A stretch of 64,000 bases of DNA from an archaeon (GTDB lineage: Archaea; Nanobdellota; Nanobdellia; Woesearchaeales; GW2011-AR9), in assembly GCA_023259115.1 (NCBI GenBank), contig JAHFQW010000003.1, positions 46,346 to 110,345 on the forward strand, read 5' to 3'. The notes below the pieces were generated by a model. It had not been told where the DNA came from. It was given only the letters and a program-made list of their open reading frames with translations, and did not search any database. Below, in pieces: positions 3,532 through 58,097 of the stretch (within the stretch, counting starts at the first letter, position 1; every line of letters begins with the position of its first letter). A program made the position numbers and the translations under genes.

Positions 3532-4887
3532 ATGTCTAAACGCTACCTTCTGGATACAAATGTGTTTATGCGTGATCCGAGAGCGTTGTTTGCATTTCAG
3601 GAACATGATGTGTATGTATCATCTGGGGTACTGCAAGAGTTGGATAAGTTTAAGAAGGGTAACGAAGAACAAAATATCAATGCACGTCTAGCGAATAGGC
3701 AGTTAGCGGGTCTTATGCGGGAGTTAGGACAATATTCTAAAGAGGAGAGAAGACAAAAAATAAATGAAGGGATTCCTCTAGGGGAGGGATTAGGGAGATT
3801 ATACTTTTTGGCGTTAGAAGAGAATGTAATGTTTAGTTATGCAGATCCAGAATTATTATATCAACTTAAAAAAGATGAACAATTGAAGAAAGAATCAGAA
3901 TTGATTTTAGTGAGTAATGATACAAGTCTGCGGCTGCAGGCATTTGCGCAGGGATATTTTGCAGAAGAGTATCGCCATGATCGGGATATTAAAGATTTAC
4001 ATGAATTACTGGATATGCCTGAGAGAATTACGCTTGAGGCAGATGATGTCATTCAATTACGACAGGAGAGAAGTTTATCTATCCCTAAAGGAATTTTGCA
4101 ATTTAACAAACCCCTATTTAATAATCAATATCTTTATGTTGAAGGGGATACGTTGCTGCTGCGATATAAAGAAGCACATTTGGAACATACTTTTGTACAG
4201 CTTCAAGATAGGCGAGGGGTTGATTCAATCTTTGGAATTTATCCAAAAAATAAAGAACAATCATACTTATCTGATCTTTGTTTGAATGATGAGATTAGAA
4301 TTGGAACGGTGTTAGGAAAAGCAGGAACAGGAAAAACGATATTAACATTGGCAGCGGCACTGCAAAAAACAATTAGAGAGAACAAATTTGATAGAATTGT
4401 GATTATTCGTCCAGTGATGGAAATTGGGGAAAAATTGGGTTTTTTACCTGGTGACATTGATGAGAAAATTGATCCGTATAAAGGTCCAATTAAAGATGCG
4501 GCAGAAGTGATTTTTTCGGGAATGCGTAAAAAAATTGGAGGAGTGGAAGAGGCGGGTTTAGAATATCTTATTGGACAAGGTAAAATTTTATTTGCACCAT
4601 TAAATTATATGCGAGGACGAAATCTGATAAAAACGTATATTATTGTGGATGAGGCGCAGAATCTCACGCCCAGTCAGGCGAAAACGCTTGCAACAAGAAC
4701 GGGACAAGATTCCAAAATTATTTTTCAAGGTGATCCGTATCAAATTGATGCGCTGCATTTGGATGAGACAAATAATGGTCTTGTGACGTTAACTAAGAAA
4801 TTGCTAGGAGAGAAGATTTTTTCTACAGTGGTGTTGAAGTCAACAGAACGCAGTGATGTGGCGGAATTGGTTGCGAGAGTTATGTGA
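3532..4887 (+). CDS. PIN-domain plus PhoH-like ATPase (YlaK/PhoL family)
   Basis: N-terminal PIN (LLDTNVFMRDPRAL); C-terminal PhoH P-loop GKAGTGKTILTLAAAL and IVDEAQNLTP. Confidence 0.8.
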   Translation: MSKRYLLDTNVFMRDPRALFAFQEHDVYVSSGVLQELDKFKKGNEEQNINARLANRQLAGLMRELGQYSKEERRQKINEGIPLGEGLGRLYFLALEENVMFSYADPELLYQLKKDEQLKKESELILVSNDTSLRLQAFAQGYFAEEYRHDRDIKDLHELLDMPERITLEADDVIQLRQERSLSIPKGILQFNKPLFNNQYLYVEGDTLLLRYKEAHLEHTFVQLQDRRGVDSIFGIYPKNKEQSYLSDLCLNDEIRIGTVLGKAGTGKTILTLAAALQKTIRENKFDRIVIIRPVMEIGEKLGFLPGDIDEKIDPYKGPIKDAAEVIFSGMRKKIGGVEEAGLEYLIGQGKILFAPLNYMRGRNLIKTYIIVDEAQNLTPSQAKTLATRTGQDSKIIFQGDPYQIDALHLDETNNGLVTLTKKLLGEKIFSTVVLKSTERSDVAELVARVM

Positions 4888-5879: not shown

Positions 5880-6215
5880 ATCTTTTTCAATGAAAATGAA
5901 AAATAATATTTTCAAGAGTAAAAATCACATTGAGTGTTCAAATAGACTATTGATTTTTACTTGTCAAACTCCTCTAAGAAGTACTTTGAATATAGATAAC
6001 TGTGTAGAAGATATAATATTTGACACAGTTATCTAATACAAGAAAATAAATAAACGATTTATTTTCCACAAGACAAAACAGCGATTTTGTCTGTGCACAA
6101 ATAGGATAGTTTTCCTATTTTGTGTGTACAGAAATACGATAGTTTTCGTATTTCTTGTAAATAAACTGTGGTTTATTATATTGATGAATAGAGGGGTTAT
6201 TCAAAGTTCCTTTTA
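5880..6215. repeat. Mosaic intergenic hairpin-repeat locus A
   Basis: Ordered modules: conserved 11-bp-stem hairpin AGTAAAAATCA...TGATTTTTACT (5917-5961); palindrome AAGTACTTTGAATAT; AGATAACTGTGT/ACACAGTTATCT hairpin (5992-6033); four tandem short hairpins (6042-6066, 6071-6092, 6099-6120, 6130-6155; two share the loop TAGTTT); TTTATTATATTGATGAATAGAGGGGTTATTCAAAGT tail abutting the stop of the 6217 gene. Confidence 0.6.
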
Positions 6216-6216: not shown

Positions 6217-6939
6217 CTATTTTGCTTCAGATTTAAGTCCTTGCACTTTGTAGAGTAGCATTAATTCATTGGCGAAATTAAGTGTACTATTTCGTTCGAA
6301 TGGTTGGGTGAAATCTATCCTAATTTGGTGTTTTTGAAGTAGGGTTAGTTCATATTGCTGAAGAATTTTGCCCATTTCAGCATCAGGAATTTTCTCTGCT
6401 TGGATAAGTGCGATTCCGTATTGACTACCCCAATCACAGTGACCACCATATTGGGTATGGTCAGGTTGAGCGAGCCAGAGGCGGGCATTTACATAAGGAA
6501 AAGTAGGGTAAGCGTTGCGTTCCTCATCATAATCTTTTTTATTATCTATTCGCCATCCTTTTTTTGGTTCTTCAAAAGGGTTGCCAGGTACATTTTTCCA
6601 TGCGTCTTTGGTTGCGTTTACTCTTTTTCCTTCATCGAAGTTATACACTCTATTTACTTTTTGCACAGAAAGATAGAGTGCATTAAAATGATTTGATGGA
6701 GTGATTGTTTTTAAGACTTCATTGAATCCTATTGTTCCGAATTGGCGAGCATGTCTATCGAAGTATTTTTGATCTTTTCCTTTTACGAAGAATTCTATTT
6801 CTTCATGATCTTCACTTATTTTTTGCCAGACTCGCTCATCAAGAGTTAGCATTTTTACTAATTGGGTATATTTAATACCCTCCATTTCGTTGGCTTCTTC
6901 TTGGGTTCTGTACATTGGTTTGTATATTGTGGGCGTCAT
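6217..6939 (-). CDS. Hypothetical protein (240 aa)
   Basis: Long clean ORF with no confident family assignment. Flanked on both sides by repeat loci. Confidence 0.4.
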   Translation of the reverse strand: MTPTIYKPMYRTQEEANEMEGIKYTQLVKMLTLDERVWQKISEDHEEIEFFVKGKDQKYFDRHARQFGTIGFNEVLKTITPSNHFNALYLSVQKVNRVYNFDEGKRVNATKDAWKNVPGNPFEEPKKGWRIDNKKDYDEERNAYPTFPYVNARLWLAQPDHTQYGGHCDWGSQYGIALIQAEKIPDAEMGKILQQYELTLLQKHQIRIDFTQPFERNSTLNFANELMLLYKVQGLKSEAK

Positions 6940-7961: not shown

Positions 7962-8010
7962 AAGTATAGAGGGGTTTGATTAACCATATAAGACTTGCCA
8001 AAGTCCTCTA
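7962..8010. repeat. GAGGGGTTTGATTAACC...CAAAGTCCTCTATA repeat element
   Basis: Same 5' module as the elements at 11591 and 28340; imperfect inverted arms TAGAGGGGTTTG / CAAAGTCCTCTA. Confidence 0.5.
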
Positions 8011-11584: not shown

Positions 11585-11695
11585 ATTTTTATAGAGGGGT
11601 TTGATTAACCATCTAAAATTCCTCAAACCCATTTAAGAAGTACTTTGAATGTTAATGAATATAGGGGTTATTCAAAGTCTTCTATAATCTTATTA
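11585..11695. repeat. Intergenic repeat element (GAGGGGTTTGATTAACC + ACTTTGAAT/ATTCAAAGT palindrome)
   Basis: ATAGAGGGGTTTGATTAACCATCTAAAATTCCTCAAACCC...AAGTACTTTGAATGTTAATGAATATAGGGGTTATTCAAAGT lies downstream of the 3' end of the minus-strand gene at 11712. Confidence 0.5.
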
Positions 11696-13679: not shown

Positions 13680-14354
13680 ATGATTCCAAGAGGATCGGTG
13701 TTAGTAAATACGAGTTATATTCAATTCAAAAAAAGCGATAATTATTTTAAATGGGCAAGATTTGGTGAATGTATGGATATCACACAAGCATTTTTATCTG
13801 GAATAAAAGATTGTGAAGAATTTCCTGAAGCATTGGAAATAGTTAAAGGAAATTCTTCTGGAAAAATTTGGCTTATTGGAGGATTTGTTTATAGAACGAT
13901 AGCAAGTCAATTATACGGATTGCCAAAACCAGAAGTAGATTTGGATTTTGTTGTAGAATATCCTGTATCGGATTTTAATTTACCTTCTGGTTGGAGAGCT
14001 GATAAAAATAGATTTAGCAATCCAAAATTAGTGAATGGCAAAAAGCAAATAGATTATGTTCATTTAGGAAATATTTACTCAATTCTCCAAAGACAGATTG
14101 AACCTACGATTGAAATTTTTTTGACAGGTGTTCCTTTAACAGTTCAATCTGTTGCTTATGATGTTAATGAAAATAGAGTCATTGGAGAAATTGGGATTGA
14201 TGCTTTACAAAGAAGAGTTGTTGAAGTAAATGATTTGCTTTTTGCCGAATATGCTGCAAAAAAGAAAAACAAATCCCTCCACGAAATGATACAAGAGAAA
14301 GCTGATGGATTAGGATTTACGCCAATTTTTCCTGAACGCAAATCTTGCCCTTAA
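13680..14354 (+). CDS. Putative nucleotidyltransferase-fold protein
   Basis: LIGGFVYRTIAS...EVDLDFVV resembles a pol-beta-type NTase GG...DxD core. Weak. Confidence 0.3.
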   Translation: MIPRGSVLVNTSYIQFKKSDNYFKWARFGECMDITQAFLSGIKDCEEFPEALEIVKGNSSGKIWLIGGFVYRTIASQLYGLPKPEVDLDFVVEYPVSDFNLPSGWRADKNRFSNPKLVNGKKQIDYVHLGNIYSILQRQIEPTIEIFLTGVPLTVQSVAYDVNENRVIGEIGIDALQRRVVEVNDLLFAEYAAKKKNKSLHEMIQEKADGLGFTPIFPERKSCP

Positions 14355-15292: not shown

Positions 15293-16048
15293 TTATTTGA
15301 ATAAGTTGGCGATGTCATCTAAGGAGACGGATTCTTTTGGGCGGGTCGATGGTTCTGATTCTTCAGGTGATGATTCTTTTGGTTTCTTGATTTTTTTTGG
15401 GGATATTGATTGAGCAGATGTCTGCGGCAGGGGAGAGGGGGAAGATAATGGTTGTTCTGGTTGTGCGGGAATAGAGGGAGTTGGAGGAGGAGAAGATAAT
15501 TCGAGGGATTCTGGAAGTGATTCTTGTGGTGTTTGATTTGGGATGCCGAGCAGTTCGTTGAGGCGTCCTTGGATGGCTTGAGCTATATTTTGTTGATAGG
15601 TTTTGTCTAGTAGTTTTTCTTCTGCGCCGAGTAAGTTATCTCCTTCTTTTCGGGGGATAACGTGGATGAGAAAATGTTGGGCACGCTGACCGGCTGCGAG
15701 ACCATTGGCAATGAAAATATTTGTGCCCGATACTTTGAGAGAACGTAATTGGAGTTGTGACATTTGCTGGGCAATGATGAAGAGGTGGCCGATTAATGGG
15801 TCGGGTAATTGGGGCATGATGGCGTAGTGAATTTTGGGGAGAATGAGAATATGTCCTTTCGCGGCGGGATTAATGTCGAGAATAGAGAGGGAGTGTTCAT
15901 CTTCATGAATTATTTTGGAAGGGATTTTTTTGGAGATGATTTGACAGAAAATACATTGTTGTTTTTGGAGTTCTGCGAGCTGCTCTGGCGACATATTTTT
16001 TATTTTTTCTTCCAGAGCTTTACGCTGTTCTTCGGTCATTTCGGGCAT
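15293..16048 (-). CDS. HIT-family protein paralog with N-terminal coiled segment and a P/S-rich tail
   Basis: CIFCQII (classic Hint N-terminus); QHFLIHVIPRKEGDN has the middle His replaced by Leu; P/S-rich C-terminus. Confidence 0.55.
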   Translation of the reverse strand: MPEMTEEQRKALEEKIKNMSPEQLAELQKQQCIFCQIISKKIPSKIIHEDEHSLSILDINPAAKGHILILPKIHYAIMPQLPDPLIGHLFIIAQQMSQLQLRSLKVSGTNIFIANGLAAGQRAQHFLIHVIPRKEGDNLLGAEEKLLDKTYQQNIAQAIQGRLNELLGIPNQTPQESLPESLELSSPPPTPSIPAQPEQPLSSPSPLPQTSAQSISPKKIKKPKESSPEESEPSTRPKESVSLDDIANLFK

Positions 16049-16187: not shown

Positions 16188-16808
16188 ATGACAAATGAAA
16201 AATATTGTATAGGAAGACCTGAACACATTTCACCAGAATTGGCGAGAACTATTGATGATACGATTTTGGTTGAGTTTTATAATACGGGAAAAGTGAGTTT
16301 GCCAGAAGCGGCACAAAAACAATCGCTTCATGGAATGTATGTTTTAAATAGCTCATTATTAACTAGATTACAGCCAGATTGGGGAAGGATTAGTTTTGAG
16401 ACTATGGGATTTCTTGATGAGCCATATGGCTGTGTCACGGGTATTGAACAACAAGGAGGATATATTATTGAATATAATTCGTTTCGTAATGGTGCATCAA
16501 TATCTTTTCTAATTACTCCAGAGGCAGAGGGGAATATGAAACATAAAGTTGAAAAAAATAAGCAACCAAGTAGGTATGGGCTTAAGGAAAAGAAAGAATT
16601 TCCTATTGTTATTCCGCCAGGGTGGAGTATGTCTGTTATACACCAAGTAATGAGAGGTCTTGCATCTAAACGAGTAACAGATTTTAAGATACGCGATGGA
16701 CCAGCACGCGATGCCCCTCTAGAAGTTGAGTTGCCAGAACTGGAAAAATTTGCTCAAGAAGGATGGCATTTGCCATATGAAAATCTGCGATTATATAATG
16801 AAAAATGA
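16188..16808 (+). CDS. Hypothetical protein (206 aa)
   Basis: Clean ORF; no motif recognised. Confidence 0.4.
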   Translation: MTNEKYCIGRPEHISPELARTIDDTILVEFYNTGKVSLPEAAQKQSLHGMYVLNSSLLTRLQPDWGRISFETMGFLDEPYGCVTGIEQQGGYIIEYNSFRNGASISFLITPEAEGNMKHKVEKNKQPSRYGLKEKKEFPIVIPPGWSMSVIHQVMRGLASKRVTDFKIRDGPARDAPLEVELPELEKFAQEGWHLPYENLRLYNEK

Positions 16809-17187
16809 TAAGTTAGGGCAAACTCTTCCATAAGTAATGAAAGTATTTTTTATAATTCTCTGCGAGTGATGTATGAGTTATGACAAAGGCAATAGGTTTT
16901 TCTAACCAGAGTACGTTGGCTATGGTGTCGCCATAGATGTAGATTACATTGGGTCCAGCGAGTATTTATCTTGAACGTGGGGAAGATAGGCAAAAGAGAT
17001 TATACCAATGGGATACGTTTCGATCTGTTTCTTGTTGTGCAGAAGAGGCGCTAGAAATTACACGGGCAGAATTTCAAGAATTAATTACACCCCTCAAAAA
17101 TGATTTGCAATTGTTTTATGATAAAGAAAAATGGCGAGCGTGTGAACCTAAAAAGTAAGGTGATAATGGTCTACTTGTAATAGATAA

Positions 17188-18270
17188 TCATTTTTTCAAA
17201 AACTCTTTGACGTTCTTAAAATCGACTTTGATGATTTGAGAAAATGAAAGGGAATAGGTGGTCATTTTATTTTCTTAATTTCTTTTTTTGGAGGAAGAAA
17301 ATTTTCTCCGGTCACAACATTTTTTCCGGTCTTTTCTTCAAGTTCTATTCGTGCATTCTTAGCAATTTTGCCGCCTTTCTTGCTAGCAATAGTATTTTCT
17401 GGCATGCCTTGGGCATTCATTGTTTGTGCAATTTGCCTCGTTGATAATTCTGCAAGTGCGGTAAAAACCAGTTCTGCTTCATTCATATGATCACGAAGAT
17501 TCTGATTTTTTAGTCCTTTCAAGTCTTTATGTTCTTTAACATTAACTCCTGACCATTCTTCGTGGATGATATTAGTTAATATGGCATATTCTTCATCTTT
17601 TGTAACATCATGATCTTTCCAATAGTCTGTGAGCTTATTTCTAATCTCTTGACTCATCATTCGCTGCTGGATCCACTTCTCACTGCGTCCAAGCTTTTGC
17701 CAATTGTCTCTAGCTCTATCTAAAGATAATGATGGATCTGCTAGCTCTTTCATACGTTCATATCCCACCTTAGCAAGCCATAATTTTATAGGCTCAGCTT
17801 TGGGAGAAGGAATAGACTGAATTAGACGCAATAGAATATCTGGACTAGCCACATCTGTCTCACGCATCTTCCCATCTTGTGCGGGTAATTTCAACTGGTC
17901 ACAATTTGTGACCACTTCACTCCCTTCATTTTTTAAACGATTTTTAAGAGTAGTCCAGTAAGATTTTGCTTTATCATAATCCGTTTGTTGTGTTAAAACT
18001 GCCACAATATCAATTACGGAAAAATACCATGTTTCTGTCTTCTCATCGTAGTATCTTCTTATCTTATAATTTTCAAATATTGTTAAGTTATTTACCATCT
18101 TTACAACCTCAAAAACATAATAATTTCATGTCCAGTTATTATTGATGCTTAAAAAAGAGGTGAACATTAAAAAGATTACCTCCTTGAAAATCATAATTAT
18201 TAAAATTTTATCCCCGCTATATTCATTTTTTCAAAAACTCTTTGACGTTCTTAAAATCGACTTTGATGAA
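17188..18270. mobile_element. Putative integrated or degenerate mobile element flanked by 47-bp perfect direct repeats
   Basis: TCATTTTTTCAAAAACTCTTTGACGTTCTTAAAATCGACTTTGATGA occurs at 17188-17234 and again at 18224-18270. The second copy is the 3' coding end (…KVDFKNVKEFLKK*) of rnhC; the first is a partial duplicate of it. The only complete gene between them is dinD-like. Confidence 0.45.
17262..18098 (-). CDS. DinD-like / Bro-N (KilA-N) domain protein
   Basis: N-terminal FENYKIRRYYDEKTETWYFSVIDIVAVLT is Bro-N-like. C-terminal half aligns with E. coli DinD (KGLKNQNLRDHMNEAELVFTALAEL vs KGLKKNQKILDHMGSTELAANLFRATQ). Confidence 0.65.
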   Translation of the reverse strand: MVNNLTIFENYKIRRYYDEKTETWYFSVIDIVAVLTQQTDYDKAKSYWTTLKNRLKNEGSEVVTNCDQLKLPAQDGKMRETDVASPDILLRLIQSIPSPKAEPIKLWLAKVGYERMKELADPSLSLDRARDNWQKLGRSEKWIQQRMMSQEIRNKLTDYWKDHDVTKDEEYAILTNIIHEEWSGVNVKEHKDLKGLKNQNLRDHMNEAELVFTALAELSTRQIAQTMNAQGMPENTIASKKGGKIAKNARIELEEKTGKNVVTGENFLPPKKEIKKIK

Positions 18271-19038
18271 TTGTGCGAATGAGTGGTTACGTTTTTTGAG
18301 TTCTTCTACTGCGGGTAGAACGTGTGTGCTGCCTTTGGGAAGTGTAAATCCGGCTAATGAACTGAGGTAGTTGAGTTGATGGAGTGCGGCGGCTCTGGCG
18401 AGGATGGATGCGGCGGCGACTTCGACATATTTGGATTCGGCTTTTTCTTCACAGTTGTTTCCTGCTTGGCAGCCGGGGTATTTATCTACAATGTGTTTCC
18501 CGGGTTTGAGATATCTGGCGCAGTCATCATGGAGTTTATTTAGGAGATGGGTGATGTTGTGATGTATTAGGTAGTTGTTATATTCTTCGGGGAGAAGGCT
18601 GATAATTTCACAGGGGACGAGGTGTTTAATTTTTTCGGCGAGAGGGAGAATTTCGGTATCGCTGAGCGTTTTGCTATCGGCAACGCCGAGTTCTTTGAGT
18701 TTTTTTCTGGTGTCATTATCGGCTTTTACCGCAGCTACAACGATGCCACCAAACGTGTCACCTTTCAATGATTCATCACTGCCAATGATGATGCCGGTTT
18801 CTTGGGTGAAGTGTTGGGAAGATTGTTTTTGACCAATATGATGTTTTTCTAGTTCGGGAAGAAGGGATTTGATATGTTGAGGAGAGCCTTGGAGGAGAAG
18901 TTTTCCGGAGGTGTAGAGAATTAATGTGACACCTAATTTTGTTAAACGCAGTTGTTCGTATAAAGAGGTGGGTTCTTGTTGGATGCAGCCTTTGAGTTTT
19001 TGCAAGTCCTCTTTTTGAACGTGATCGAAGACAGTCAT
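18223..19038 (-). CDS. rnhC: Ribonuclease HIII (bacterial type)
   Basis: N-terminal domain plus catalytic IIGSDESLKGDTFGGIVVAAV, LGVADSKTL, VAAASILARAAAL and GFTLPKG align closely with B. subtilis RNase HIII. Confidence 0.8.
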   Translation of the reverse strand: MTVFDHVQKEDLQKLKGCIQQEPTSLYEQLRLTKLGVTLILYTSGKLLLQGSPQHIKSLLPELEKHHIGQKQSSQHFTQETGIIIGSDESLKGDTFGGIVVAAVKADNDTRKKLKELGVADSKTLSDTEILPLAEKIKHLVPCEIISLLPEEYNNYLIHHNITHLLNKLHDDCARYLKPGKHIVDKYPGCQAGNNCEEKAESKYVEVAAASILARAAALHQLNYLSSLAGFTLPKGSTHVLPAVEELKKRNHSFAQFIKVDFKNVKEFLKK

Positions 19039-19168
19039 GGAGTCAGGGAAGATGCACGAGAATAAAAAGGTATGGGGAGATTACTGAGAAGGTTATGCTG
19101 ATGAGGTTAAGCTTATGATGATATGCTTATGAGGTTAAGCTGAAGAGGATGATGCTGATTACTTTAGT

Positions 19169-20236
19169 TCAATATTCGGTTAATTTCTTATTGGAATTAT
19201 AGGTAACAATTGTACTATTTCCTTCTTTGCCCGTGGTTTTTTCTGTGTTGATGAATTTGGCTTCGGTTAGTTTAAGAATACGGCGCTGGAAGCTTTTGTA
19301 ACTCAGAAGGTTGCCTTGTTCGAGGTAGTGGGTGTAGAGTTCGCCTATTTTTTGACCGCTTTTTTCACGAATGAGGTCAAGAATGTTTTTGAGATCGTCA
19401 TCAAGTGTTTCGGTGGGGTTGATATGAAATTCATCCACTTTTTTCATGGCGCCAGCAACGTGCTGCAGGGTGATTTTACGGGAGCTTTGGTCTTCCGCAA
19501 GAGAACCGGCTTCGCGCATGAGATACAAACCAATACGAACGTCTTTGAGTTCGGTGCAGCGCTCAACTATTTCTTTGAAGGCGTCATTGTCCCAGCAGTC
19601 TTGCACAAAGGCGTAGTCGCGGCGTTGTTTGAGAATGGAGGCGATTTCTGATTCGTTGTAGGGGCGAAAGATGAGAAATTCCGGAGAGAGACGGGAGCGG
19701 ATACGTTCATCTAATTCAGAATAACTATCGCGGTAGTTTGTGATTAGGAAGATAGATTTGCGATAGATGTCTTCTAAGAGGGCGTAGAGAAAATCGGTTT
19801 CTTCAAGTTTATCTACTTCGTCAAAGATGAAGACGACAGATGTTTTGTTGAGTTTGGTTTTAATTAGATCGAGAAGTTCGGTTGTGCGTTTGTTTTGCAG
19901 AAATTTGAAGCCAAGATCATCACATAATTTGGAGTAAATTTTGAAGGAGGTGTTTTCTTTCCAGCAGTTGATATAGAGAGGTGTGACATCTTGAGTGGTT
20001 TCTTCTAATTCTCGCAGAACGTGTTTACAAGCCGTGGTTTTACCAATACCAGGAGGGCCGGAAATGAAGAGATTTCTTCCGGGCAGACTTTGCAGAAGGG
20101 GTTTTATGGCAACGGCGAAGCGTTGTTGTTCGTTTTCTCGGGCGAATAAGATTTTTGGCTGGAAATCGTAGCTGAGAAAGAGGGTATCGCGAAAAAGAGA
20201 TTCACCAGATTTGAGCATATCTTTGAAGAGAGACAT
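19169..20236 (-). CDS. Orc1/Cdc6 replication initiator
   Basis: AAA+ Walker A ISGPPGIGKTTACKHVLREL; Walker B IFDEVD; C-terminal winged helix; N-terminal ...RENEQQRF typical of Cdc6. Confidence 0.85.
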   Translation of the reverse strand: MSLFKDMLKSGESLFRDTLFLSYDFQPKILFARENEQQRFAVAIKPLLQSLPGRNLFISGPPGIGKTTACKHVLRELEETTQDVTPLYINCWKENTSFKIYSKLCDDLGFKFLQNKRTTELLDLIKTKLNKTSVVFIFDEVDKLEETDFLYALLEDIYRKSIFLITNYRDSYSELDERIRSRLSPEFLIFRPYNESEIASILKQRRDYAFVQDCWDNDAFKEIVERCTELKDVRIGLYLMREAGSLAEDQSSRKITLQHVAGAMKKVDEFHINPTETLDDDLKNILDLIREKSGQKIGELYTHYLEQGNLLSYKSFQRRILKLTEAKFINTEKTTGKEGNSTIVTYNSNKKLTEY

Positions 20237-23550: not shown

Positions 23551-23725
23551 TTGTTATACGCAATTCAAAAAATACTTTTCTAACGGATAATAATGGAGAT
23601 AGGCTTTCAAAACATAGATAAATTTGATTTTTTCTTTTATTTTTAGAGGGGGATAAAATGTGTTTTCTTCATTTCATTCCAAAAACGTACTTATTTATAA
23701 ACTTTTAATTATTAAGGATTATATT

Positions 23726-24292
23726 ATGAGAAAACTAATCATGTGGAACGTAATCACTCTCGATGGATACTTCGAGGGTGAGAAAAATTGGGACTTGAGT
23801 TTTCATGAACTTGTCTGGGGCAAGGAGCTTGAGGAGTTAAGCCTCATCCAGTTAAAATCAGCCGACATGCTTGTGTTTGGTTCGACGACATACAAAGGCA
23901 TGGCAGATTATTGGTCAAAGGCAGAAGGGGCAGAAGGAGAAATCGCCAAATTCATGAATGGGATTCAAAAGGTCGTCTGTTCATCAACACTCAAAACTGC
24001 CGACTGGAACAACACATTAATTGTAAAAGATGCTGTGGCTGAAATTCCTAAATTGAAACAGCAAGGCAACGGAGATATGTTTGTGTTTGGCAGCGGTAAA
24101 CTCTCGAAGTCCTTGATGAAAGCAGAGCTGTTTGATGAATTTCGTTTATGTATTGCACCATTATTTTTGGGAAAGGGGAAACTGTTGTTCAATCAAGGTA
24201 TCCCCCATAAAAAACTTAAACTACTTGAAACACGTCCACTTGTTACGGGAGGTATCATCCTTCGGTATGCTCCAGATGGAAAAACTGAATGA
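23726..24292 (+). CDS. Dihydrofolate-reductase-like protein (RibD C-terminal domain family)
   Basis: MRKLIMWNVITLDGYF... start and LVFGSTTY / FVFGSGKL motifs typical of the RibD_C / YwjB family. Start trimmed to the M at 23726. Confidence 0.6.
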   Translation: MRKLIMWNVITLDGYFEGEKNWDLSFHELVWGKELEELSLIQLKSADMLVFGSTTYKGMADYWSKAEGAEGEIAKFMNGIQKVVCSSTLKTADWNNTLIVKDAVAEIPKLKQQGNGDMFVFGSGKLSKSLMKAELFDEFRLCIAPLFLGKGKLLFNQGIPHKKLKLLETRPLVTGGIILRYAPDGKTE

Positions 24293-28335: not shown

Positions 28336-28690
28336 AGATATAGAGGGTTTTGATTAACCCTATAATACTTGTCAAAACCCTCTAAGAATTACTTTGAATA
28401 TTGATAAATAGATGGGTTATTCAAAGTCCTCTATAGTAGAATTCCATGATATTCGAACACAAGAAAATGAATAATAATCATTTTCTGTGCAGAAATAAAG
28501 TAGTTTCTTTATTCAACGAAAATGGAAAATAACATTTTTAAGAGTAAAAATCCATTGATTTTATTGAATGATTCGCAGATTTGCGATTGGGATTTTTACT
28601 TCTTGTATTTGTGGAATTCTACTAATAAGTAAATATCCCTAATTATGTTCGAGAGCTAGGGATATTTACTATAAGAGAGGGAAAGAATAT
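28336..28690. repeat. Mosaic intergenic hairpin-repeat locus C
   Basis: AGAGGGTTTTGA / TCAAAACCCTCT hairpin; ATTACTTTGAATA...GGGTTATTCAAAGT palindrome; TAGTAGAATTCCA and its inverse TGGAATTCTACTA; hairpins AGAAAATGA / TCATTTTCT and AGAAATAAAG-TAGTTT-CTTTATT; conserved module AGTAAAAATCC...GGATTTTTACT (28544-28600); AGTAAATATCCCTA / TAGGGATATTTACT (28627-28670). Confidence 0.6.
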
Positions 28691-29959: not shown

Positions 29960-30005
29960 GTAATCTTTTGTTTATTATATTGATGAATATAAATGTTATT
30001 CAAAG
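29960..30005. repeat. TTTATTATATTGATGAATA...GTTATTCAAAGT 3'-end element
   Basis: Near-identical to the tail at 6165-6208; abuts the stop (TAA read on the minus strand at 30006-30008) of the minus-strand gene. Confidence 0.45.
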
Positions 30006-31514
30006 TTAATTATAATGGTTTTTAATTTTACTTTGATAGGGATATTTTTCGTTAGTGTAGAGAAGAATGTCAGGGGTGGCTAACTGGGGAAATTTTTGAT
30101 AACTAGCACGATAGCCTTGATTTACCTCTTGCAAAGTTTTCATAATTAATTGGGTGTATTTTTGTTTGAGCAAATGAGTGGGGATGATATTAGGTTTTAA
30201 TTGAATTTCAATCTGCAAGCAACGATTGTGATTTGTATCAAAGATACTTTGAAATTTAAAGTTGCCTGTAGTTTGTGTTTCGATTTGAGGGTTGCGATAG
30301 ATGCATTCTTGGATGTTTTCAGGATAGATGAGGAAAGCGTTGAAGTTGACAGGGCCATTTTTTCTGCCAACAATATAAAGAAAAGGAAGAGGAAGGTTAA
30401 GTTGGCGGTGAATTTTGTGTTTAGCAAGAATTTTTTGCATGGAAGCGTGGGAGATGGTGCCTCCTTCATCTTCGAGGTTATATTTCATGACGGGCTGTGC
30501 GGCTTCAGGTAGGATTGTGGTGAAGACCAGTTCTTTTTTTTCGTTGGCGTAGACAAATAAATTGAGAGGGTATTGAAAGAGCATGGGAGTTTCTTGTACA
30601 TCTCCGAAGAGTTCTTGACGTAAAGTGTGGTTTTTATCAGCTAGACGACGAATGAAAACAGTGTTATCATTTTCCATACCACCTAGAATACCGATGTCAG
30701 AGGCGCCAAAACCGGAGCGGACTTTGCCTTTAATTTGTTTTTGAAGATATGTACGCCAAGATTCGGGAAAATCTTCGCCACCACCAATAAAGTGAAGGGT
30801 ATATTTTTTAAGTGGGAATTTACGGGTTATGGCGTCGTCAACGAAGTTTTTGATGAATGGAGGGTAGCCGGTAATGATGATTTGTTCGTAGCTGCTGCCA
30901 ATATCAAGAATGGTTTGAAATATTTCGTCTTTATCTGGCCCAACATTAATGACGGGACAATGCCAGGAAGCTAATTCATTGAAATTTATACCAGTAACCC
31001 AGCTGCCAAGAATAAAGCCATTGATGATTAATGTTTTTTTTTTATCCGTTTTGAAATTTTCATCGAGGGCAATACTCAGAGCGGTTTTACCAAAGAGGTC
31101 TTCATTGTGGGAACGAACCCAATAACATTGTTTGCCAGAGTGACCGGAACTTTTGACAATCATACTAATATTGTGATAGTCACCGTTAATACACATGTCA
31201 CACATATCATGGGCTTTAAAGATATAATTTTTTTTGTTGGTTTCGGGAGCAAGGGTGAGAAAGTCATGTAGTGTTTTAATTTGTTGAGGGTTGCAGTGAT
31301 GTTGGGTGAGAAATTTTTTGTATTGAGGGATACGCTGGGCATTGAGATGAAAAGTGTAGAGGAGATATTTTTCTTGAAGAAGCTCAATGGTATCGGGAGA
31401 GGTGTTAAAAAATGTTTCTTTAAATTTAGGATAATTTTTGGTCTGCTGATTCATCAAGGGATGGAGCAGAGACATGGAGACGGTTTTGATGGTGGAATTA
31501 AGAAGAAAAGACAT
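30006..31514 (-). CDS. Adenylate-forming enzyme (PaaK / F390-synthetase-like)
   Basis: SSGHSGKQ approximates the AMP-binding motif (S/T)SG(S/T)TGxPK; overall PaaK-like architecture at about 500 aa. Weak. Confidence 0.4.
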   Translation of the reverse strand: MSFLLNSTIKTVSMSLLHPLMNQQTKNYPKFKETFFNTSPDTIELLQEKYLLYTFHLNAQRIPQYKKFLTQHHCNPQQIKTLHDFLTLAPETNKKNYIFKAHDMCDMCINGDYHNISMIVKSSGHSGKQCYWVRSHNEDLFGKTALSIALDENFKTDKKKTLIINGFILGSWVTGINFNELASWHCPVINVGPDKDEIFQTILDIGSSYEQIIITGYPPFIKNFVDDAITRKFPLKKYTLHFIGGGEDFPESWRTYLQKQIKGKVRSGFGASDIGILGGMENDNTVFIRRLADKNHTLRQELFGDVQETPMLFQYPLNLFVYANEKKELVFTTILPEAAQPVMKYNLEDEGGTISHASMQKILAKHKIHRQLNLPLPFLYIVGRKNGPVNFNAFLIYPENIQECIYRNPQIETQTTGNFKFQSIFDTNHNRCLQIEIQLKPNIIPTHLLKQKYTQLIMKTLQEVNQGYRASYQKFPQLATPDILLYTNEKYPYQSKIKNHYN

Positions 31515-34013: not shown

Positions 34014-34508
34014 TTAACGATTGATTGGTTTTACTTTATGGGCATAAATAGCATCAATTGTTGCTACTAACGCTTGGCCGTAACTCTGTATATTTACTGT
34101 TTTTCGATCACCGCTCACCGCTTTTTCTAGACCATAAACCCTAAATTGATCAATATCTAAGCAGAGGTCTGGTGAAGTTAATTGATTCCTTAGACTTGTT
34201 GCGACAAGAACTTGTTCTAACCCAGGAAGCTGGGATTTTTCTTTGTTTAATAATGTAAGAACGTTTAAACCAGAATAATTTAATGTGACTTTTTCAAGAG
34301 TTTTACTATCAGTATAATCTTTGAAGTTTAAATCCATCACAATGAGGTCGTCTGTTGTGAGATTTGCACGTTTCCAATAGTCTATGGCGAATATATTACT
34401 TAATTTGGCAATAAAAGGAGTATATCCTCTTGTGGTGAGCATTACTTGCGCTTCACTCAAAAGGGTGCGATCGTCTTCACATAATATAATTCGGCCTGGT
34501 TTAATCAT
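34014..34508 (-). CDS. Atypical receiver-domain (CheY-like) protein
   Basis: IILCEDD N-terminus; DLIVMDLNFKDY (phospho-Asp position); LVATS; conserved Lys (VYGLEKA). Confidence 0.45.
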   Translation of the reverse strand: MIKPGRIILCEDDRTLLSEAQVMLTTRGYTPFIAKLSNIFAIDYWKRANLTTDDLIVMDLNFKDYTDSKTLEKVTLNYSGLNVLTLLNKEKSQLPGLEQVLVATSLRNQLTSPDLCLDIDQFRVYGLEKAVSGDRKTVNIQSYGQALVATIDAIYAHKVKPINR

Positions 34509-34622
34509 GGTAATTCCTCATGTTGTTAAAAAAGTGTTACTTTTAAGTAGAAAACTTTTTTAGTATATAAAGATTATTATTTTTGAAAGTACATATTGTA
34601 AAATAGTCAAAATAATGGTGAT

Positions 34623-35162
34623 TTAACGAGGAATTTCTGATTTATCACGCCACCCGTAGTTTAATGGGTGGATTCTTTCTTGCTTAGGATCAGCATAGAT
34701 GTCTTTGATGCGCTGGACCAAACTTTCACCATAATTGATGACTTTGCCTCTTGCGTCTATGCCTTTTGCTAGACCGTAGACGTCAAATCCTTCGATTTTG
34801 GCGATATCCCAGCTCGGATTTCTTGGATCAATCTCGCGAACGTTGCTCGTGGCGATGAGAACACGTTCTAATTCTAATACATAGCCTTGTTGTTTACATT
34901 GTTCCAGACGAGCTAAGATGTCTTTACCTGAGCACACGAGAGCCGCTTTTTGTTGGGTTGTAGGATCTCGGTATTCTTTAAAATTTAAATCAAGAACAAT
35001 GAGATCATCTGTTTGGATATGAAGGTTCATCCAGTAATGGGTATCTGAAGCTTCTGCTAAATCGACTTGTTCAAAACGATATTTATCTACGTGCCATAAT
35101 TCGCTCATCGCACCATTTACTAAATCAAGTTCATCTTCAGCGATATAGATTGTAGGGCTCAT
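34623..35162 (-). CDS. Atypical receiver-domain protein (paralog of 34014)
   Basis: IYIAEDE; DLIVLDLNFKEY; LIATS; VYGLAKG. Clear paralogy to the neighbouring gene. Confidence 0.45.
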   Translation of the reverse strand: MSPTIYIAEDELDLVNGAMSELWHVDKYRFEQVDLAEASDTHYWMNLHIQTDDLIVLDLNFKEYRDPTTQQKAALVCSGKDILARLEQCKQQGYVLELERVLIATSNVREIDPRNPSWDIAKIEGFDVYGLAKGIDARGKVINYGESLVQRIKDIYADPKQERIHPLNYGWRDKSEIPR

Positions 35163-36555: not shown

Positions 36556-36642
36556 AGAATGGTTTGGGGGAGGTTGATTATAAATTTTATGATATTGCAG
36601 ATTTTTTGTATTGATAAGTAGAGGGGTTATTCAAGCACTTAT

Positions 36643-38046: not shown

Positions 38047-38829
38047 TTATTGGCGTAATTTGTTTTCTCTTTCCAATCGTTGAATAAGATTTGATACTCT
38101 CCCCTCAGGGATAGATGAATCTATTGATCTGAATGTAGCTTCAATGCCTGGAGTGGAAGAATATAATTGGTCTAATATTTCTCCTAGAGAATTGCTTTTC
38201 CATTGGATAATTGAAGAAGCGGTGCCTTGAGGGTGTTTCAAAGAGAATTGTACTTCCAGGTGATAGGAATCATCGCCATCTTGTCGAGAAACTTGAACAA
38301 TATCTTCCATAGTCTCAATGCCACAGATTTGCACGGAATCAGGGATAATGTGGTTATCATAATGAGGATAGGGCAATGTTCCTTCTTTTAATTTAGACCA
38401 TATTCGGCCACGTTTCTCACCGACAAATCTTATTTCTGTTTCACTTTTGGCGTGAAAATAGGTGGGTTCATAACTATTTAAATTTATTTTTGCACTATAT
38501 GCACCAAGAGCGTCAGAGGTGAAATTGGTTAGTTTAATGCTTATATTTCCATCATCAACACGATACGCTCCCCAGATTCTCTTTTCTTCGGTTTTGCCTT
38601 CTTCTGTAGGTGAAAAATGGATTACACCATCTTTTGCAGGAAAATGACCACAGCGCCATGGACCAAATTTAGATATTTTGCCCAACCCATATACTTCCAT
38701 ACTACCTAAAGCGCTATTTGGCGAATGGGGAGAAAAATCAGAGAGACGAACGCCACCAATCACCATTCCATTTCGTTGAAATGCTATTTCTTTATTGTTT
38801 CTTAAATATAATGAAATGTTTGTGTCCAT
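38047..38829 (-). CDS. Hypothetical protein (260 aa), last gene of the ABC-transporter operon
   Basis: Clean ORF; no motif recognised. Confidence 0.4.
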   Translation of the reverse strand: MDTNISLYLRNNKEIAFQRNGMVIGGVRLSDFSPHSPNSALGSMEVYGLGKISKFGPWRCGHFPAKDGVIHFSPTEEGKTEEKRIWGAYRVDDGNISIKLTNFTSDALGAYSAKINLNSYEPTYFHAKSETEIRFVGEKRGRIWSKLKEGTLPYPHYDNHIIPDSVQICGIETMEDIVQVSRQDGDDSYHLEVQFSLKHPQGTASSIIQWKSNSLGEILDQLYSSTPGIEATFRSIDSSIPEGRVSNLIQRLERENKLRQ

Positions 38830-41682: not shown

Positions 41683-41772
41683 GTTGAATTCTATTTTTCT
41701 ATTTGAGTATATTAATATTTAACGAATTGTGAGGATTATTCAAAGTTCTCTATAAATATTTATTCTAAATAT

Positions 41773-46719: not shown

Positions 46720-46898
46720 GAGTTTAAGTATGTATTAAGTTAGGTAACAGAAAGTGAGGGCAGGCCGTCTGCTGTGGCGAAAATGATATGTTTTTCGATG
46801 ATTTTCGCTTCTTAACCTTATCTTACGAATGGTATAGCACAGCAGACATCTTGGCCAAGCCCGCACTTTTAATGTGAACTTAATACATACGAGTTTAA
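46720..46898. mobile_element. MITE (family 2, copy a) with 14-bp TIRs and 8-bp target-site duplication
   Basis: TIR GTATGTATTAAGTT (46728-46741) / AACTTAATACATAC (46877-46890). TSD GAGTTTAA at 46720-46727 and 46891-46898. Internal long imperfect hairpin GTGAGGGCAGGCCGTCTGCTGTG...CACAGCAGACATCTTGGCCAAGCCCGCAC. Confidence 0.6.
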
Positions 46899-46913
46899 GA
46901 AAGGTATATAAAC

Positions 46914-47420
46914 GTGAAAAAAATGATTGTGACCATGACGTGGTTATCAATGTTCGGGGGTTGGGGAAGTGGAAAAAATTCTACGAATTCTACGAAGAAG
47001 AGTGATTCGGAGGCGCAATTACGGGGGTTTATTTTAGATATTCGTACATATATCAACAAGAGATTGTATAATCCTGATTCTGAGCTGGTGCCGCTGCAGT
47101 TTTTGGATCGATCAACACGAGAAAATGCGGCAAATTCAACGGCAACGGTACAGCATTTTTTTGAGAGAACAAAAGAACAGTTGCAGACCTATAAAAGTGT
47201 TATTAGTGCAATAGCTGTACCAGAACAGGACCGCTTCTCACGAAATGCGAAAATAAAAACGGTAGAGGTATTGGAGGGGATGATGGGGCATTGTCAATTT
47301 TTTTATGATCGAGCAGAGTCGTATAGGACATATCAACAAGATGGAACGGTGAAGAGATTATTGAATCATACTATTAAAAATTATCTGGCAACGCTGGAGA
47401 TGTTTTCTGAGGTTAATTAA
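46914..47420 (+). CDS. Hypothetical protein (168 aa) bracketed by two MITEs
   Basis: ORF starts 15 bp after MITE 2a; MITE 2b begins 1 bp after its stop. No recognisable domain. Confidence 0.35.
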   Translation: MKKMIVTMTWLSMFGGWGSGKNSTNSTKKSDSEAQLRGFILDIRTYINKRLYNPDSELVPLQFLDRSTRENAANSTATVQHFFERTKEQLQTYKSVISAIAVPEQDRFSRNAKIKTVEVLEGMMGHCQFFYDRAESYRTYQQDGTVKRLLNHTIKNYLATLEMFSEVN

Positions 47421-47664: not shown

Positions 47665-47701
47665 GAAAAGTATATAAAAAGCAAGTGGTTAGTGATTAAA
47701 G

Positions 47702-48136
47702 ATGGTGTTAAAAGAGATGTTTTCATTTGGGCAAAAGAAGGTGATTGAGTTAGATCCATACCAAGATTTGAAAGAGCGGGTGCAAGATGCGAATTCTTAT
47801 GTTATGAACAAGATTGGGGATCCGAAGGCGGAAATGTTTCAATTGCAGTTAGGGATTGTGCCAAAAGAGAGGATACAACGTTTTTTTTATGATGTGGGAA
47901 GCAATTTGGAGAGGCATCGAGAGAGTGTGAAAGCGGAATTGCTTAGGCATAATCCTATGACGTTTCCCATTGATAAGAGAGAAGTGATTAAAGCACTGGG
48001 TGATTTGCGCGAGATGTGCAAACATTTGGAGGAGAATCCTCAGCATTTTCGGGTGCGGACAACGGAGTTGCAGCATAAAGCACAAAATTATATGAAAGCG
48101 GCGGATGTGTACCGCAACTTATCTACTCGAAGATAG
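47702..48136 (+). CDS. Hypothetical protein (144 aa), possibly HEPN-like
   Basis: Alpha-helical. Weak similarity to the C-terminus of the preceding 168-aa protein. Lies upstream of an NTase gene, the usual HEPN/MNT arrangement. No firm motif. Confidence 0.3.
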   Translation: MVLKEMFSFGQKKVIELDPYQDLKERVQDANSYVMNKIGDPKAEMFQLQLGIVPKERIQRFFYDVGSNLERHRESVKAELLRHNPMTFPIDKREVIKALGDLREMCKHLEENPQHFRVRTTELQHKAQNYMKAADVYRNLSTRR

Positions 48137-57938: not shown

Positions 57939-58097
57939 ATGATGTGAGAAGAAGAATTTTTCTTTTATTTATTTTTTCTAGTTCAGTTTACTTTTAGACT
58001 AAATGGAGAGGTTTAATTTTAAAAAAAAAAGATAAAAAAAATAAGATTTATTCAATGTTCTTTATGATTTCGCTATAAAGAGGTTATTCAAAGTCTT

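What the first reader, a model, noticed from the sequence alone, without database searches (positions are those of the whole stretch)
17188..18270. About 1 kb insertion carrying a DinD/Bro-N gene, flanked by 47-bp perfect direct repeats that duplicate the 3' end of rnhC
The last 17 codons plus the stop of the RNase HIII gene (…KVDFKNVKEFLKK*) are present twice, at 18224-18270 in the intact gene and at 17188-17234 as an orphan copy, with 47 bp identical. This is the attL/attR-like footprint left by elements that integrate into the 3' end of a gene and regenerate it. The cargo between the repeats is a single DinD-like / Bro-N-family gene, a family typical of phages and integrative elements. No integrase is present. 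Decayed ORF fragments lie just outside at 16860-17160, so this is probably a degraded integrative element.
Basis: seen in the sequence. Interest (0 to 1): 0.6.

Follow-up and report, generated by a model that had tools for sequence, protein, structure and literature searches.

The report
Repeat-flanked foreign defence-candidate gene after rnhC
A 1-kb piece of recently acquired DNA with one bacterial-type candidate anti-virus gene sits just after a housekeeping gene of a tiny (DPANN) archaeon, bracketed by a 47-base duplicate of that gene's end; this is the footprint of recombination-mediated insertion, but nothing that could have catalysed it is encoded nearby.

Summary
It brackets a 1,035-bp unit with a single gene and duplicates the 3' end of an RNase HIII-like gene. 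In-frame similarity extends to about 60 nt, with all four mismatches in the 13 nt next to the perfect core.

The cargo is not a true DinD. It is a Bro-N protein of PADLOC family PDC-S13, an untested single-gene defence candidate. It is 72-83% identical to proteins from many bacterial phyla. It is the only gene in the 64 kb with reversed third-position GC skew (z = -5.6), so it arrived recently.

The host is a Woesearchaeota-like DPANN archaeon. The gap between rnhC and two HIT genes varies from 2 nt to 5.7 kb among relatives.

No integrase was found in the insert, in 38 other window ORFs, or in relatives' gaps. No attP was found in viral contigs. The "decayed ORFs" include the tail of a host trmB-like gene.

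Best reading: a non-autonomous cassette integrated by reciprocal recombination of a circle carrying an rnhC-3'-like segment. The enzyme is unresolved (host recombination or a trans-acting integrase, CIME-like). This is a new member of a known kind, of moderate interest.

The parts
18223..18269 (-). Direct-repeat copy 1. This is the last 14 codons plus the stop of the intact rnhC-like gene (the gene-proximal, attL-like copy).
   Evidence: Exact 47-mer match, 0 expected by chance. It lies inside ORF 18223..19038.
17188..17234 (-). Direct-repeat copy 2. This is the orphan rnhC 3' end (the attR-like copy).
   Evidence: Exact 47-mer match. It is the best hit outside the rnhC genes themselves to a profile of rnhC C-termini across the window and 82 related loci, at 31.7 bits.
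17235..17247 (-). Imperfect extension of the orphan copy. It reads S-F-S-Q-I in frame where the resident gene at 18270-18282 reads S-F-A-Q-F (9 of 13 nt identical).
   Evidence: (P = 0.002). It shares the rare residues S, Q and I with the resident allele when compared with the family C-termini.
17262..18098 (-). Cargo gene of 278 aa. It has an N-terminal Bro-N domain and a helical C-terminal domain, and belongs to PADLOC family PDC-S13 (single-gene phage-defence candidate).
   Evidence: Pfam Bro-N 1.9e-7. PDC-S13 1.2e-120 over the full length. phrog_15286 1.4e-92. It is 72-83% identical to proteins of many bacterial phyla. Third-position GC skew is -0.31 against +0.64 for all other genes. The AlphaFold2 model's best solved-structure match is DdrC, E = 2e-5.
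18099..18222 (-). 124-nt spacer between the rnhC stop and the cargo start. It is part of the inserted unit and presumably carries the cargo's promoter.
   Evidence: It has no similarity to any homologous locus; DNA similarity to the closest homologues stops at the ORF. It lies within the negative-skew block.
17248..17261 (-). 14 nt between the cargo stop codon and the start of the rnhC-like orphan segment. This is the junction of bacterial-type and archaeal-type sequence.
   Evidence: Read directly. Similarity to homologues ends at 17264.
18223..19038 (-). Target gene: an RNase HIII-like (RNase HII family) protein of 271 aa, left intact.
   Evidence: Pfam RNase_HII 3.5e-24. TIGR00716 rnhC scores 135 bits, below its cut-off of 161. 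There are 1,124 homologues, named Woesearchaeota or Nanoarchaeota where named.
16819..16965 (-). Pseudogene fragment: the last 49 codons of a trmB-like regulator of the host's variable island, lying outside the repeats.
   Evidence: tblastn gives 82% identity to residues 194-242 of the intact 243-aa gene in relative L135.
16188..16808 (+). 206-aa ORF of unknown function. It is the remaining content of the variable rnhC-HIT gap.
   Evidence: No hit in Pfam, NCBIfam, PADLOC or PHROGs. It is absent from relatives' gaps.
15293..16048 (-). First of two HIT-family genes. This is the conserved far boundary of the variable gap.
   Evidence: Pfam HIT 7.1e-19. The order rnhC, HIT, HIT is conserved in about 45 related loci.

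Best explanation
A non-autonomous cassette of about 1.0 kb was recently integrated right at the stop codon of the rnhC-like gene of a Woesearchaeota-like DPANN archaeon. It carries one gene and a short leader.

Proposed mechanism (inferred): reciprocal recombination between the chromosomal rnhC 3' end and a nearly identical segment of about 60 nt carried next to the gene on a circular intermediate (Campbell-type integration). The crossover fell inside the 47-bp identical block. rnhC therefore kept a complete reading frame. The cassette's own rnhC-like segment, which differs from the resident gene only in its gene-proximal 13 nt, was left behind as the orphan copy.

The cassette encodes no recombinase, so the reaction was catalysed in trans. 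I lean slightly towards host homologous recombination acting on DNA from a closely related strain (insertion-duplication). The alternative is an unlinked site-specific integrase, which would make this a CIME-like element.

The gene is a bacterial-type PDC-S13 protein: a Bro-N DNA-binding domain plus a helical domain, with a DdrC-like fold. Its presumed role is DNA binding in anti-virus defence. It is not expected to catalyse its own mobility.

Shown: the repeat, the boundaries, the foreign origin and recency, the family, and the absence of an integrase. Inferred: the circular intermediate, the crossover, and the enzyme.
For: - The 47-bp perfect repeat occurs exactly twice, with none expected by chance.
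- Similarity extends in frame to 60 nt, and all 4 mismatches lie in the 13 nt on one side of the perfect block. My arithmetic: (13/60)^4, about 0.002, under uniform decay. Chance similarity of that stretch has P = 0.002 at the nucleotide level and 0.009 at the protein level. This pattern is expected for a crossover between two slightly different alleles. It is not expected for a fill-in target duplication.
- The orphan extension shares the rare residues S, Q and I with the resident allele rather than with the family consensus LDFxKFV. It therefore came from a very close relative's rnhC.
- Compositional boundaries coincide with the repeats. 17201-18400 is the only negative-GC-skew stretch in 64 kb. 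The cargo's third-position skew is -0.31 against +0.64 +/- 0.17 for the other 48 genes, z = -5.6. That value is typical of its bacterial homologues.
- Closest relatives lack the gene. rnhC is followed directly by HIT-HIT in L008, with a 267-bp gap, and by as little as 2-90 nt in others.
- No integrase is encoded in the insert, in 38 further window ORFs, or in relatives' gaps.
- Homologues in bacteria are bracketed by host-derived direct repeats more often than neighbouring ORFs: 6 of 76 against 2 of 242 with an exact match of at least 17 nt. Some of these repeats are 100-340 nt long and only 75-89% identical, which is too long for att sites.
Against: - No circular form, attP or exact empty site could be observed.
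- 47-60 bp is short for homologous recombination. It is typical of archaeal att sites, which favours an integrase.
- How a bacterial-type ORF first became joined to an rnhC fragment is unexplained.
- None of 80 related rnhC loci shows a comparable repeat-flanked insert, so there is no recurrence at this site.
- Some bacterial flanking repeats may be tandem paralogues or REP-like elements rather than insertion products.
- Only 64 kb of the genome was available to search for an integrase.
Confidence: 0.5

Rival explanations
1. This is a degraded or cis-mobilisable integrative element. A site-specific tyrosine-type integrase recognising the conserved rnhC 3' end integrated a larger element. Internal deletions then removed everything except one cargo gene and left attL and attR. 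Alternatively, the mini-element is mobilised by an integrase encoded elsewhere.
For: - A 47-bp perfect repeat at the 3' end of a conserved gene, with the gene regenerated.
- The rnhC 3' end is conserved at the nucleotide level across relatives, which makes it a good target.
- 5 of 64 relatives carry a 56-68-nt mini-duplication of the same gene end. This resembles the gene-less 'microCIMEs' described next to 3' ends of housekeeping genes in streptococci (PMC7563491).
- The gap downstream of rnhC is highly variable.
Against: - No integrase or integrase fragment is present in the insert, in 38 other ORFs of the window, or in the rnhC-HIT gaps of relatives.
- No contig in IMG/VR carries the 47-mer or the encoded peptide motif.
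- No larger element bounded by rnhC-end repeats exists in 80 related loci.
- The cargo's homology to its relatives ends at the ORF, with no shared element backbone.
Confidence: 0.22
2. This was a one-off duplicative insertion by illegitimate recombination. Foreign DNA was captured at a staggered break or by replication template switching in the rnhC 3' end. Fill-in duplicated about 47-60 nt of target. Selection kept the copy that completes rnhC.
For: - A single ORF with minimal flanks and no mobility gene.
- Homology to other family members is limited to the ORF.
- The event is unique among 81 loci.
- The rnhC 3' end is hairpin-prone in relatives, which could stall replication.
Against: - A fill-in duplication predicts two initially identical copies with a sharp edge and uniform later decay. 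Instead there are 0 mismatches in 47 nt followed by 4 in 13 nt, with in-frame similarity beyond the core.
- Target duplications of 47-60 bp are unusual (own knowledge).
Confidence: 0.15
3. The duplication is older than the gene. The lineage already had a short tandem duplication of the rnhC 3' end, like the hairpin-forming mini-duplication in some relatives. The foreign gene landed between the two copies. Gene conversion later made 47 bp identical.
For: - Mini-duplications lie 56-68 nt downstream of the rnhC stop in L091, L108, L111, L115 and L128, and as in-frame extensions in P0004 and P0016.
- They form a conserved long hairpin with compensatory changes.
Against: - The mini-duplications cover only about 15-29 nt and have a conserved spacer. 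No trace of that spacer exists in the window.
- The closest relative by synteny, L135, has no duplication.
- This reading needs an extra gene-conversion step.
Confidence: 0.1
4. This is an assembly artefact. A small circular plasmid sharing 47 bp with rnhC was threaded into the chromosome by the assembler.
For: A k = 31 Logan contig ends exactly at the repeat (L003). A 1.5-kb contig ends at the orphan repeat.
Against: Three MEGAHIT contigs built at k = 141, which is longer than the 47-bp repeat, traverse both junctions and are identical to the window but for one mismatch in different samples.
Confidence: 0.02

Closest known systems
CIMEs and microCIMEs (cis-mobilisable elements) at the 3' ends of fda, rpmG, rpsI and rplL in streptococci (PMC7563491)
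   Same: They are flanked by att-type direct repeats at the 3' end of a housekeeping gene that stays intact. They have no integrase or transfer genes. They carry from one to several cargo genes (1.2-13 kb). Gene-less micro versions of 130-220 bp exist, which is comparable to the mini-duplications seen in relatives here.
   Different: CIMEs are defined as deletion derivatives of ICEs or IMEs that use the same att site, and they are usually found in tandem with one. Here no autonomous partner element or integrase is known. The host is a DPANN archaeon. At 1.0 kb this insert is below the reported size range, and the relatives' mini-duplications are shorter than 130 bp.
Lambdoid prophage 21 and the e14 element in the E. 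coli icd gene (own knowledge)
   Same: The element carries a near-copy of the 3' end of a protein-coding gene. Integration regenerates the gene and leaves an orphan, slightly divergent pseudo-3' end.
   Different: Those elements encode their own integrase and are many kb long. Their duplicated segment is longer (about 165 bp).
Insertion-duplication (Campbell-type single crossover of a circular DNA by homologous recombination), as used in streptococcal mutagenesis (own knowledge)
   Same: The product has identical architecture: the insert is flanked by a direct duplication of the homologous host segment, and differences between the copies lie outside the crossover.
   Different: It is known mainly as a laboratory or plasmid-integration phenomenon with homology of at least 100-200 bp. 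Here the homology is only about 60 bp, and the circle is hypothetical.
PADLOC PDC-S13 and Bro-N / DinD-like proteins (bioRxiv 10.1101/2024.01.29.577857)
   Same: The cargo matches the PDC-S13 profile over its full length, E = 1.2e-120. Its C-terminal half is weakly DinD-like.
   Different: PDC candidates were defined by being embedded in bacterial BREX, DISARM and type I restriction-modification loci. Here the gene stands alone next to rnhC in an archaeon. Its function is untested.
DdrC of Deinococcus radiodurans (PMC9303277, PMC11347143)
   Same: It is the best solved-structure match to the cargo model (Foldseek E = 2e-5, probability 1.0).
   Different: Sequence identity is 14-16% and TM-score only 0.33-0.44, from a model of mean pLDDT 69. 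No shared function has been shown.

Membership tests
Site-specific integrative element (attL/attR) | Direct repeats bound the element and are identical to the end of the target gene, which is regenerated | tested here: met
   47-bp perfect repeat; the rnhC ORF is intact
Site-specific integrative element (attL/attR) | Encodes an integrase or recombinase | tested here: not met
   There is only one ORF, Bro-N/PDC-S13, with no recombinase domain. None was found in 38 other window ORFs.
Site-specific integrative element (attL/attR) | Empty attB site in related genomes | tested here: inconclusive
   Relatives lack the gene and have rnhC followed by HIT. However, the nearest rnhC is only 67% identical, so there is no nucleotide-level empty site.
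Site-specific integrative element (attL/attR) | Free or circular form carrying attP | tested here: not met
   There is no match to the 47-mer or to its degenerate coding pattern in 2.9 million viral contigs. Read-level circles are not testable with these tools.
CIME (cis-mobilisable element) | Retains att sites but lacks all recombination and transfer genes | tested here: met
   definition taken from PMC7563491
CIME (cis-mobilisable element) | Derives from, or sits in tandem with, an ICE or IME that uses the same att site | tested here: not met
   No such element was found in the window, in 80 related rnhC loci or in their gaps
Campbell-type insertion-duplication by homologous recombination | The insert is flanked by a duplicated host segment whose copies differ only outside the crossover tract | tested here: met
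   0 of 47 mismatches, then 4 of 13, with in-frame homology
Campbell-type insertion-duplication by homologous recombination | A circular donor molecule carrying the homologous segment | not testable with these tools
   This needs reads or outward-facing PCR
Transposon or insertion sequence | Terminal inverted repeats and a transposase, with a short target duplication | tested here: not met
   There are no inverted repeats at the insert ends and no transposase. The duplication is 47 bp.
E. coli DinD (NCBIfam NF008573, equivalog) | Score at or above the curated cut-off of 242 bits | tested here: not met
   21.3 bits, C-terminal half only
Bro-N domain proteins (PF02498) | Score at or above the gathering cut-off of 25.6 bits | tested here: met
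   32 bits, residues 15-110
PADLOC PDC-S13 | Full-length match to the family profile | tested here: met
   E = 1.2e-120; residues 3-276 against profile positions 5-275 of 286
PADLOC PDC-S13 | Demonstrated anti-phage activity | not testable with these tools
   The source paper describes the 145 PDC systems as untested candidates
RNase HIII (TIGR00716 rnhC) | Score at or above the curated cut-off of 161.2 bits | tested here: not met
   135.1 bits. Pfam RNase_HII is met at 86 bits. The gene is therefore best called rnhC-like.

The most novel reading that the evidence does not exclude
PDC-S13 / DinD-like genes may be ORF-sized mobile cassettes that spread between bacterial phyla and into archaea by inserting with a duplication of whatever host sequence they land in. 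Their DdrC-like protein, which could bridge or circularise DNA ends, might help. The window would then be the cleanest, most recent example of a general and undescribed mode of single-gene mobility.

The hints are these:
- 72-83% protein identity across phyla and domains.
- Homology that stops at the ORF ends.
- A roughly tenfold excess of host-derived flanking direct repeats (6 of 76 against 2 of 242).
Probability: 0.07. Interest if true: 0.75.

Novelty: new member of a known kind. Interest (0 to 1): 0.37.

Why it matters
This is a precisely bounded, very recent transfer of a bacterial-type candidate defence gene into a DPANN archaeon. Its integration footprint is still intact.

Integrative elements and their target sites are hardly described in DPANN archaea. 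If an integrase acts on it, the rnhC 3' end would be a new archaeal attachment site. If host recombination did it, this would be a natural case of insertion-duplication on only about 60 bp of homology.

It also shows that the genome's extreme strand bias can date gene arrivals. On its own, though, it is one more example of a well-known architecture.

Tried and rejected
- **Exact empty site.** Identical-protein look-ups returned only the same population, all with the insert. The nearest rnhC relatives are 65-67% identical.
- **attP in viruses.** The exact 47-mer and a degenerate coding pattern both returned nothing in IMG/VR.
- **Third, decayed repeat copy.** I looked for one marking an older tandem element between 13600 and 17183, and in the rnhC-cdc6 spacer. 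No score rose above the shuffled controls.
- **Integrase in trans.** I scanned 38 of the 54 window ORFs of at least 150 aa, plus 10 ORFs from relatives' gaps, and found none.
- **Shared element backbone.** DNA similarity to the closest homologues, including three archaeal ones, stops at the ORF.
- **Known RNA families.** Rfam gave no hit on the region or on a relative's mini-duplication.
- **Spacer remnant.** I found no remnant of the relatives' mini-duplication spacer in the window.
- **Other repeat-flanked genes in the window.** The only other case, 46914..47420, is a tandem gene pair with similar upstream regions.
- **Bacterial promoter and terminator scan.** Uninformative for an archaeal host.
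- **Transposon and integron-cassette readings.** Set aside: there are no terminal inverted repeats and no transposase, and I did not test for an attC site.
- **Organism name.** The cluster look-up returned no name.

Full report
**Observation**

The 47-mer TCATTTTTTCAAAAACTCTTTGACGTTCTTAAAATCGACTTTGATGA occurs exactly twice in the window, at 17188-17234 and 18223-18269. No match appeared in 100 shuffles. The two copies are 1,035 bp apart, and this is the only long perfect direct repeat in the 64 kb.

Copy 1 is the end of a 271-aa ORF on the minus strand, 18223..19038. This ORF is an RNase HII-family, RNase HIII-like protein:
- Pfam RNase_HII, 3.5e-24.
- TIGR00716 rnhC, 135 bits, below its cut-off of 161.

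The perfect block covers two bases, then 14 codons (IKVDFKNVKEFLKK), then the stop. Beyond the block the two copies stay similar in frame for 13 more bases (9 of 13 identical). The orphan reads SFSQI where the gene reads SFAQF.

That extension is unlikely to be chance. The probability is 0.002 at the nucleotide level. At the protein level, a profile of 115 rnhC C-termini gives the orphan 32.0 bits against 28.1 for the core alone, and a random extension reaches that in 0.9% of trials.

The structure is present in MEGAHIT contigs from other samples. These were built at k = 141, longer than the repeat, and are identical to the window but for one mismatch. A 99%-identical variant of the cargo protein sits on a contig with the same spacing. 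The structure is therefore real.

**Host and neighbourhood**

The neighbours are a cdc6/orc1 gene, seryl-tRNA synthetase, two HIT genes, and further away Nop10, eIF2-alpha and L44e. Named rnhC homologues come from Woesearchaeota or Nanoarchaeota. The host is therefore a DPANN archaeon.

The nearest rnhC homologue in a database of 5.8 billion protein clusters is only 67% identical. A nucleotide-level empty site is therefore not available.

At the level of gene order, rnhC followed by HIT and HIT is conserved in about 45 related loci. The distance from the rnhC stop to the first HIT gene ranges from 2 nt to 5.7 kb. The fillers in that gap are ordinary genes: EEP-family nuclease, queuosine salvage, HAD hydrolase, PAPS reductase. 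None is an integrase.

The closest relative by synteny is L135 (serS 86% and cdc6 82% identical). It has a 5.7-kb gap that includes an intact 243-aa trmB-like gene. The window keeps only the last 49 codons of that gene, at 16819-16965 on the minus strand, 82% identical. The "decayed ORF fragments" of the finding therefore include a truncated host gene outside the repeats. They are not part of the inserted unit.

**The cargo**

The only ORF between the repeats is 17262..18098 on the minus strand, 278 aa.
- It has an N-terminal Bro-N domain.
- It is not an E. coli DinD orthologue: 21 bits against a cut-off of 242, C-terminal half only.
- It matches PADLOC PDC-S13 over its whole length, E = 1.2e-120.

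PDC families are untested candidates. They were found because they sit embedded in BREX, DISARM or type I restriction-modification loci (bioRxiv 10.1101/2024.01.29.577857).

The 120 best of more than 8,000 hits are 72-100% identical; apart from the query's own sequence and a 99% variant, they are 72-83% identical. They come from Geobacter, Planctomycetes, Omnitrophica, candidate-phyla-radiation bacteria, Methanoperedens and other DPANN archaea. The host's own rnhC, by contrast, has no relative above 67%. Only 6 of 2.9 million viral contigs carry the gene.

An AlphaFold2 model has mean pLDDT 69. It shows a Bro-N fold followed by an all-helical domain. Its only significant solved-structure match is the DNA-break-binding protein DdrC, at E = 2e-5 and TM-score 0.33-0.44 (PMC9303277, PMC11347143). 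Nothing suggests a nuclease or recombinase.

**Recency**

The whole window has an extreme strand bias. Third-position GC skew on the plus strand is +0.64 +/- 0.17 for 48 genes, whichever strand they are on. The cargo gene is the only one with a reversed value, -0.31 (z = -5.6).

The only 800-nt windows with negative skew lie at 17201-18400. They coincide with the repeat-bounded unit. On its own coding strand the gene's skew (+0.31) is within the range of its bacterial homologues. It has therefore not begun to adapt to the host's mutational bias.

**How it got there**

Three facts constrain the mechanism.
1. The two copies differ by 0 of 47 bases, then by 4 of 13. By my arithmetic this is a non-uniform pattern, about 0.002 under uniform decay.
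2. The orphan's divergent part still shares the rare residues S, Q and I with the resident allele rather than with the family consensus.
3. The bacterial-type sequence ends within 14 nt of the start of the rnhC-like orphan.

This is what a single reciprocal crossover leaves when a circular molecule carries the gene plus an rnhC 3' segment from a very close relative. It is not what a fill-in target duplication leaves.

The enzyme is not identifiable. No integrase was found in the insert, in 38 of the 54 larger ORFs of the window, or in relatives' gaps. No attP-bearing contig exists in IMG/VR. No third, decayed repeat copy marks a tandem array.

Features that favour an integrase acting in trans:
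- The repeat has the length usual for att sites.
- The target is conserved.
- 5 of 64 relatives carry a 56-68-nt mini-duplication of the same gene end, reminiscent of the gene-less microCIMEs of streptococci (PMC7563491).

Features that favour host homologous recombination:
- No partner element is present anywhere I could look.
- The orphan's extension is host-derived.
- In bacteria, PDC-S13 genes are bracketed by host-specific direct repeats about ten times more often than neighbouring ORFs: 6 of 76 against 2 of 242. Several of those repeats are 100-340 nt long and only 75-89% identical, which is too long for att sites.

Some of those bacterial cases may be tandem paralogues or REP-like repeats, so I treat this last line of evidence as suggestive only.

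I put the circular-intermediate, reciprocal-recombination reading at 0.5 with the enzyme open. The rivals are:
- A specifically integrase-driven, degraded-element reading, 0.22.
- A one-off illegitimate duplicative insertion, 0.15.
- Insertion into a pre-existing duplication, 0.10.
- An assembly artefact, 0.02.

**Comparison with known systems**

The architecture matches three known cases:
- Elements that integrate into the 3' end of a protein-coding gene and restore it, such as phage 21 and e14 in icd.
- Their non-autonomous derivatives, the CIMEs.
- Laboratory insertion-duplication.

It fails the CIME definition on one tested point: no autonomous element using the same site is known. It fails the integrative-element definition on the integrase. 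It is therefore best filed as a new member of a known kind, in an unusual host and at a new target gene.

**Verdict**

Interest is moderate (0.37). The most novel reading not excluded is that PDC-S13 genes are themselves ORF-sized mobile cassettes that insert with host-sequence duplication. I give that about 7%.

Noticed in passing
window 1-64000: The window has an extreme, uniform strand bias. GC skew on the plus strand averages about +0.3 in 2-kb windows, and third-codon-position skew is +0.64 +/- 0.17 regardless of gene orientation. There is no sign change at the cdc6/orc1 gene (19169..20236). Genes with weak skew may be other recent arrivals: 23660..24292 (0.07) and 13680..14354 (0.20), then, with intermediate third-position values of 0.32-0.43, 6217..6939, 34014..35162 and 38047..38829.
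   Followed up: partly
L091:1506-1600, L108:2974-3066, L111:7771-7862, L128:2826-2910, L115:10778-10885; proteins P0004, P0016: In 5 of 64 related loci the last six or so codons of rnhC (NVxEFL) recur 56-68 nt downstream. The stretch after the stop is an inverted copy of the gene end, followed by a small hairpin and then the second direct copy. Together they give a long conserved hairpin; 8 of 34 predicted pairs show compensatory changes. Rfam has no match. This could be a microCIME-like scar, a miniature palindromic element, or a 3' regulatory structure.
   Followed up: partly
L010, L013, L016, L028, L038, L050, L057, L070, L084 (bacterial loci with PDC-S13 homologues): The homologous gene is bracketed by host-specific direct repeats of 32-342 nt at 75-94% identity. 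In L050 the repeat is the 5' part of the downstream gene. In L010 a neighbouring Fic gene is bracketed by a related repeat. The excess over other ORFs of the same loci is 6 of 76 against 2 of 242 with an exact match of at least 17 nt.
   Followed up: partly
window 5961-5996, 6162-6215, 7965-8002, 11590-11686, 28339-28435, 29961-30014, 36592-36645, 41726-41754, 53908-54004, 58049-58102: A dispersed intergenic repeat family of about 30-100 nt, containing the inverted pair ACTTTGAATA...TTATTCAAAGT and the motif TATAGAGGGGTTTGATTAACC. Its nature is unknown (promoter or terminator module, small RNA, or miniature element).
   Followed up: no
window 19094-19149: 14-nt-period repeats (TATGCTGATGAGGTTAAGCT...) lie in the 130-nt spacer between rnhC and cdc6/orc1. 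They might be origin-recognition-box-like repeats.
   Followed up: no
window 46789-46912 and 47554-47678: Two adjacent genes of about 150 aa (46914..47420 and 47702..48136) are each preceded by a similar 125-nt upstream region, 77-80% identical. This is a tandem pair with a conserved leader.
   Followed up: partly
L177:3306-3324 and 3970-3988: In another archaeal locus with a 78%-identical homologue, a 19-nt repeat (18 of 19 identical) overlaps the homologue's start codon and recurs 664 nt upstream. It brackets a 155-aa gene on the opposite strand.
   Followed up: no
L114, L120, L132: More distant Bro-N / DinD-like genes (43-47% identical to the cargo) lie within 10 kb of rnhC in three related loci. 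In L120 the gene is immediately upstream and divergently oriented.
   Followed up: no
L135:4634-5596: The closest relative by synteny has an extra 320-aa gene inserted between cdc6 and rnhC. Both sides of rnhC are therefore variable in this lineage.
   Followed up: no
window 16871-17158 (+): A reading frame of about 95 codons with two in-frame stops lies on the plus strand between the trmB-like remnant and the orphan repeat. It hits no family and may be decayed sequence.
   Followed up: partly
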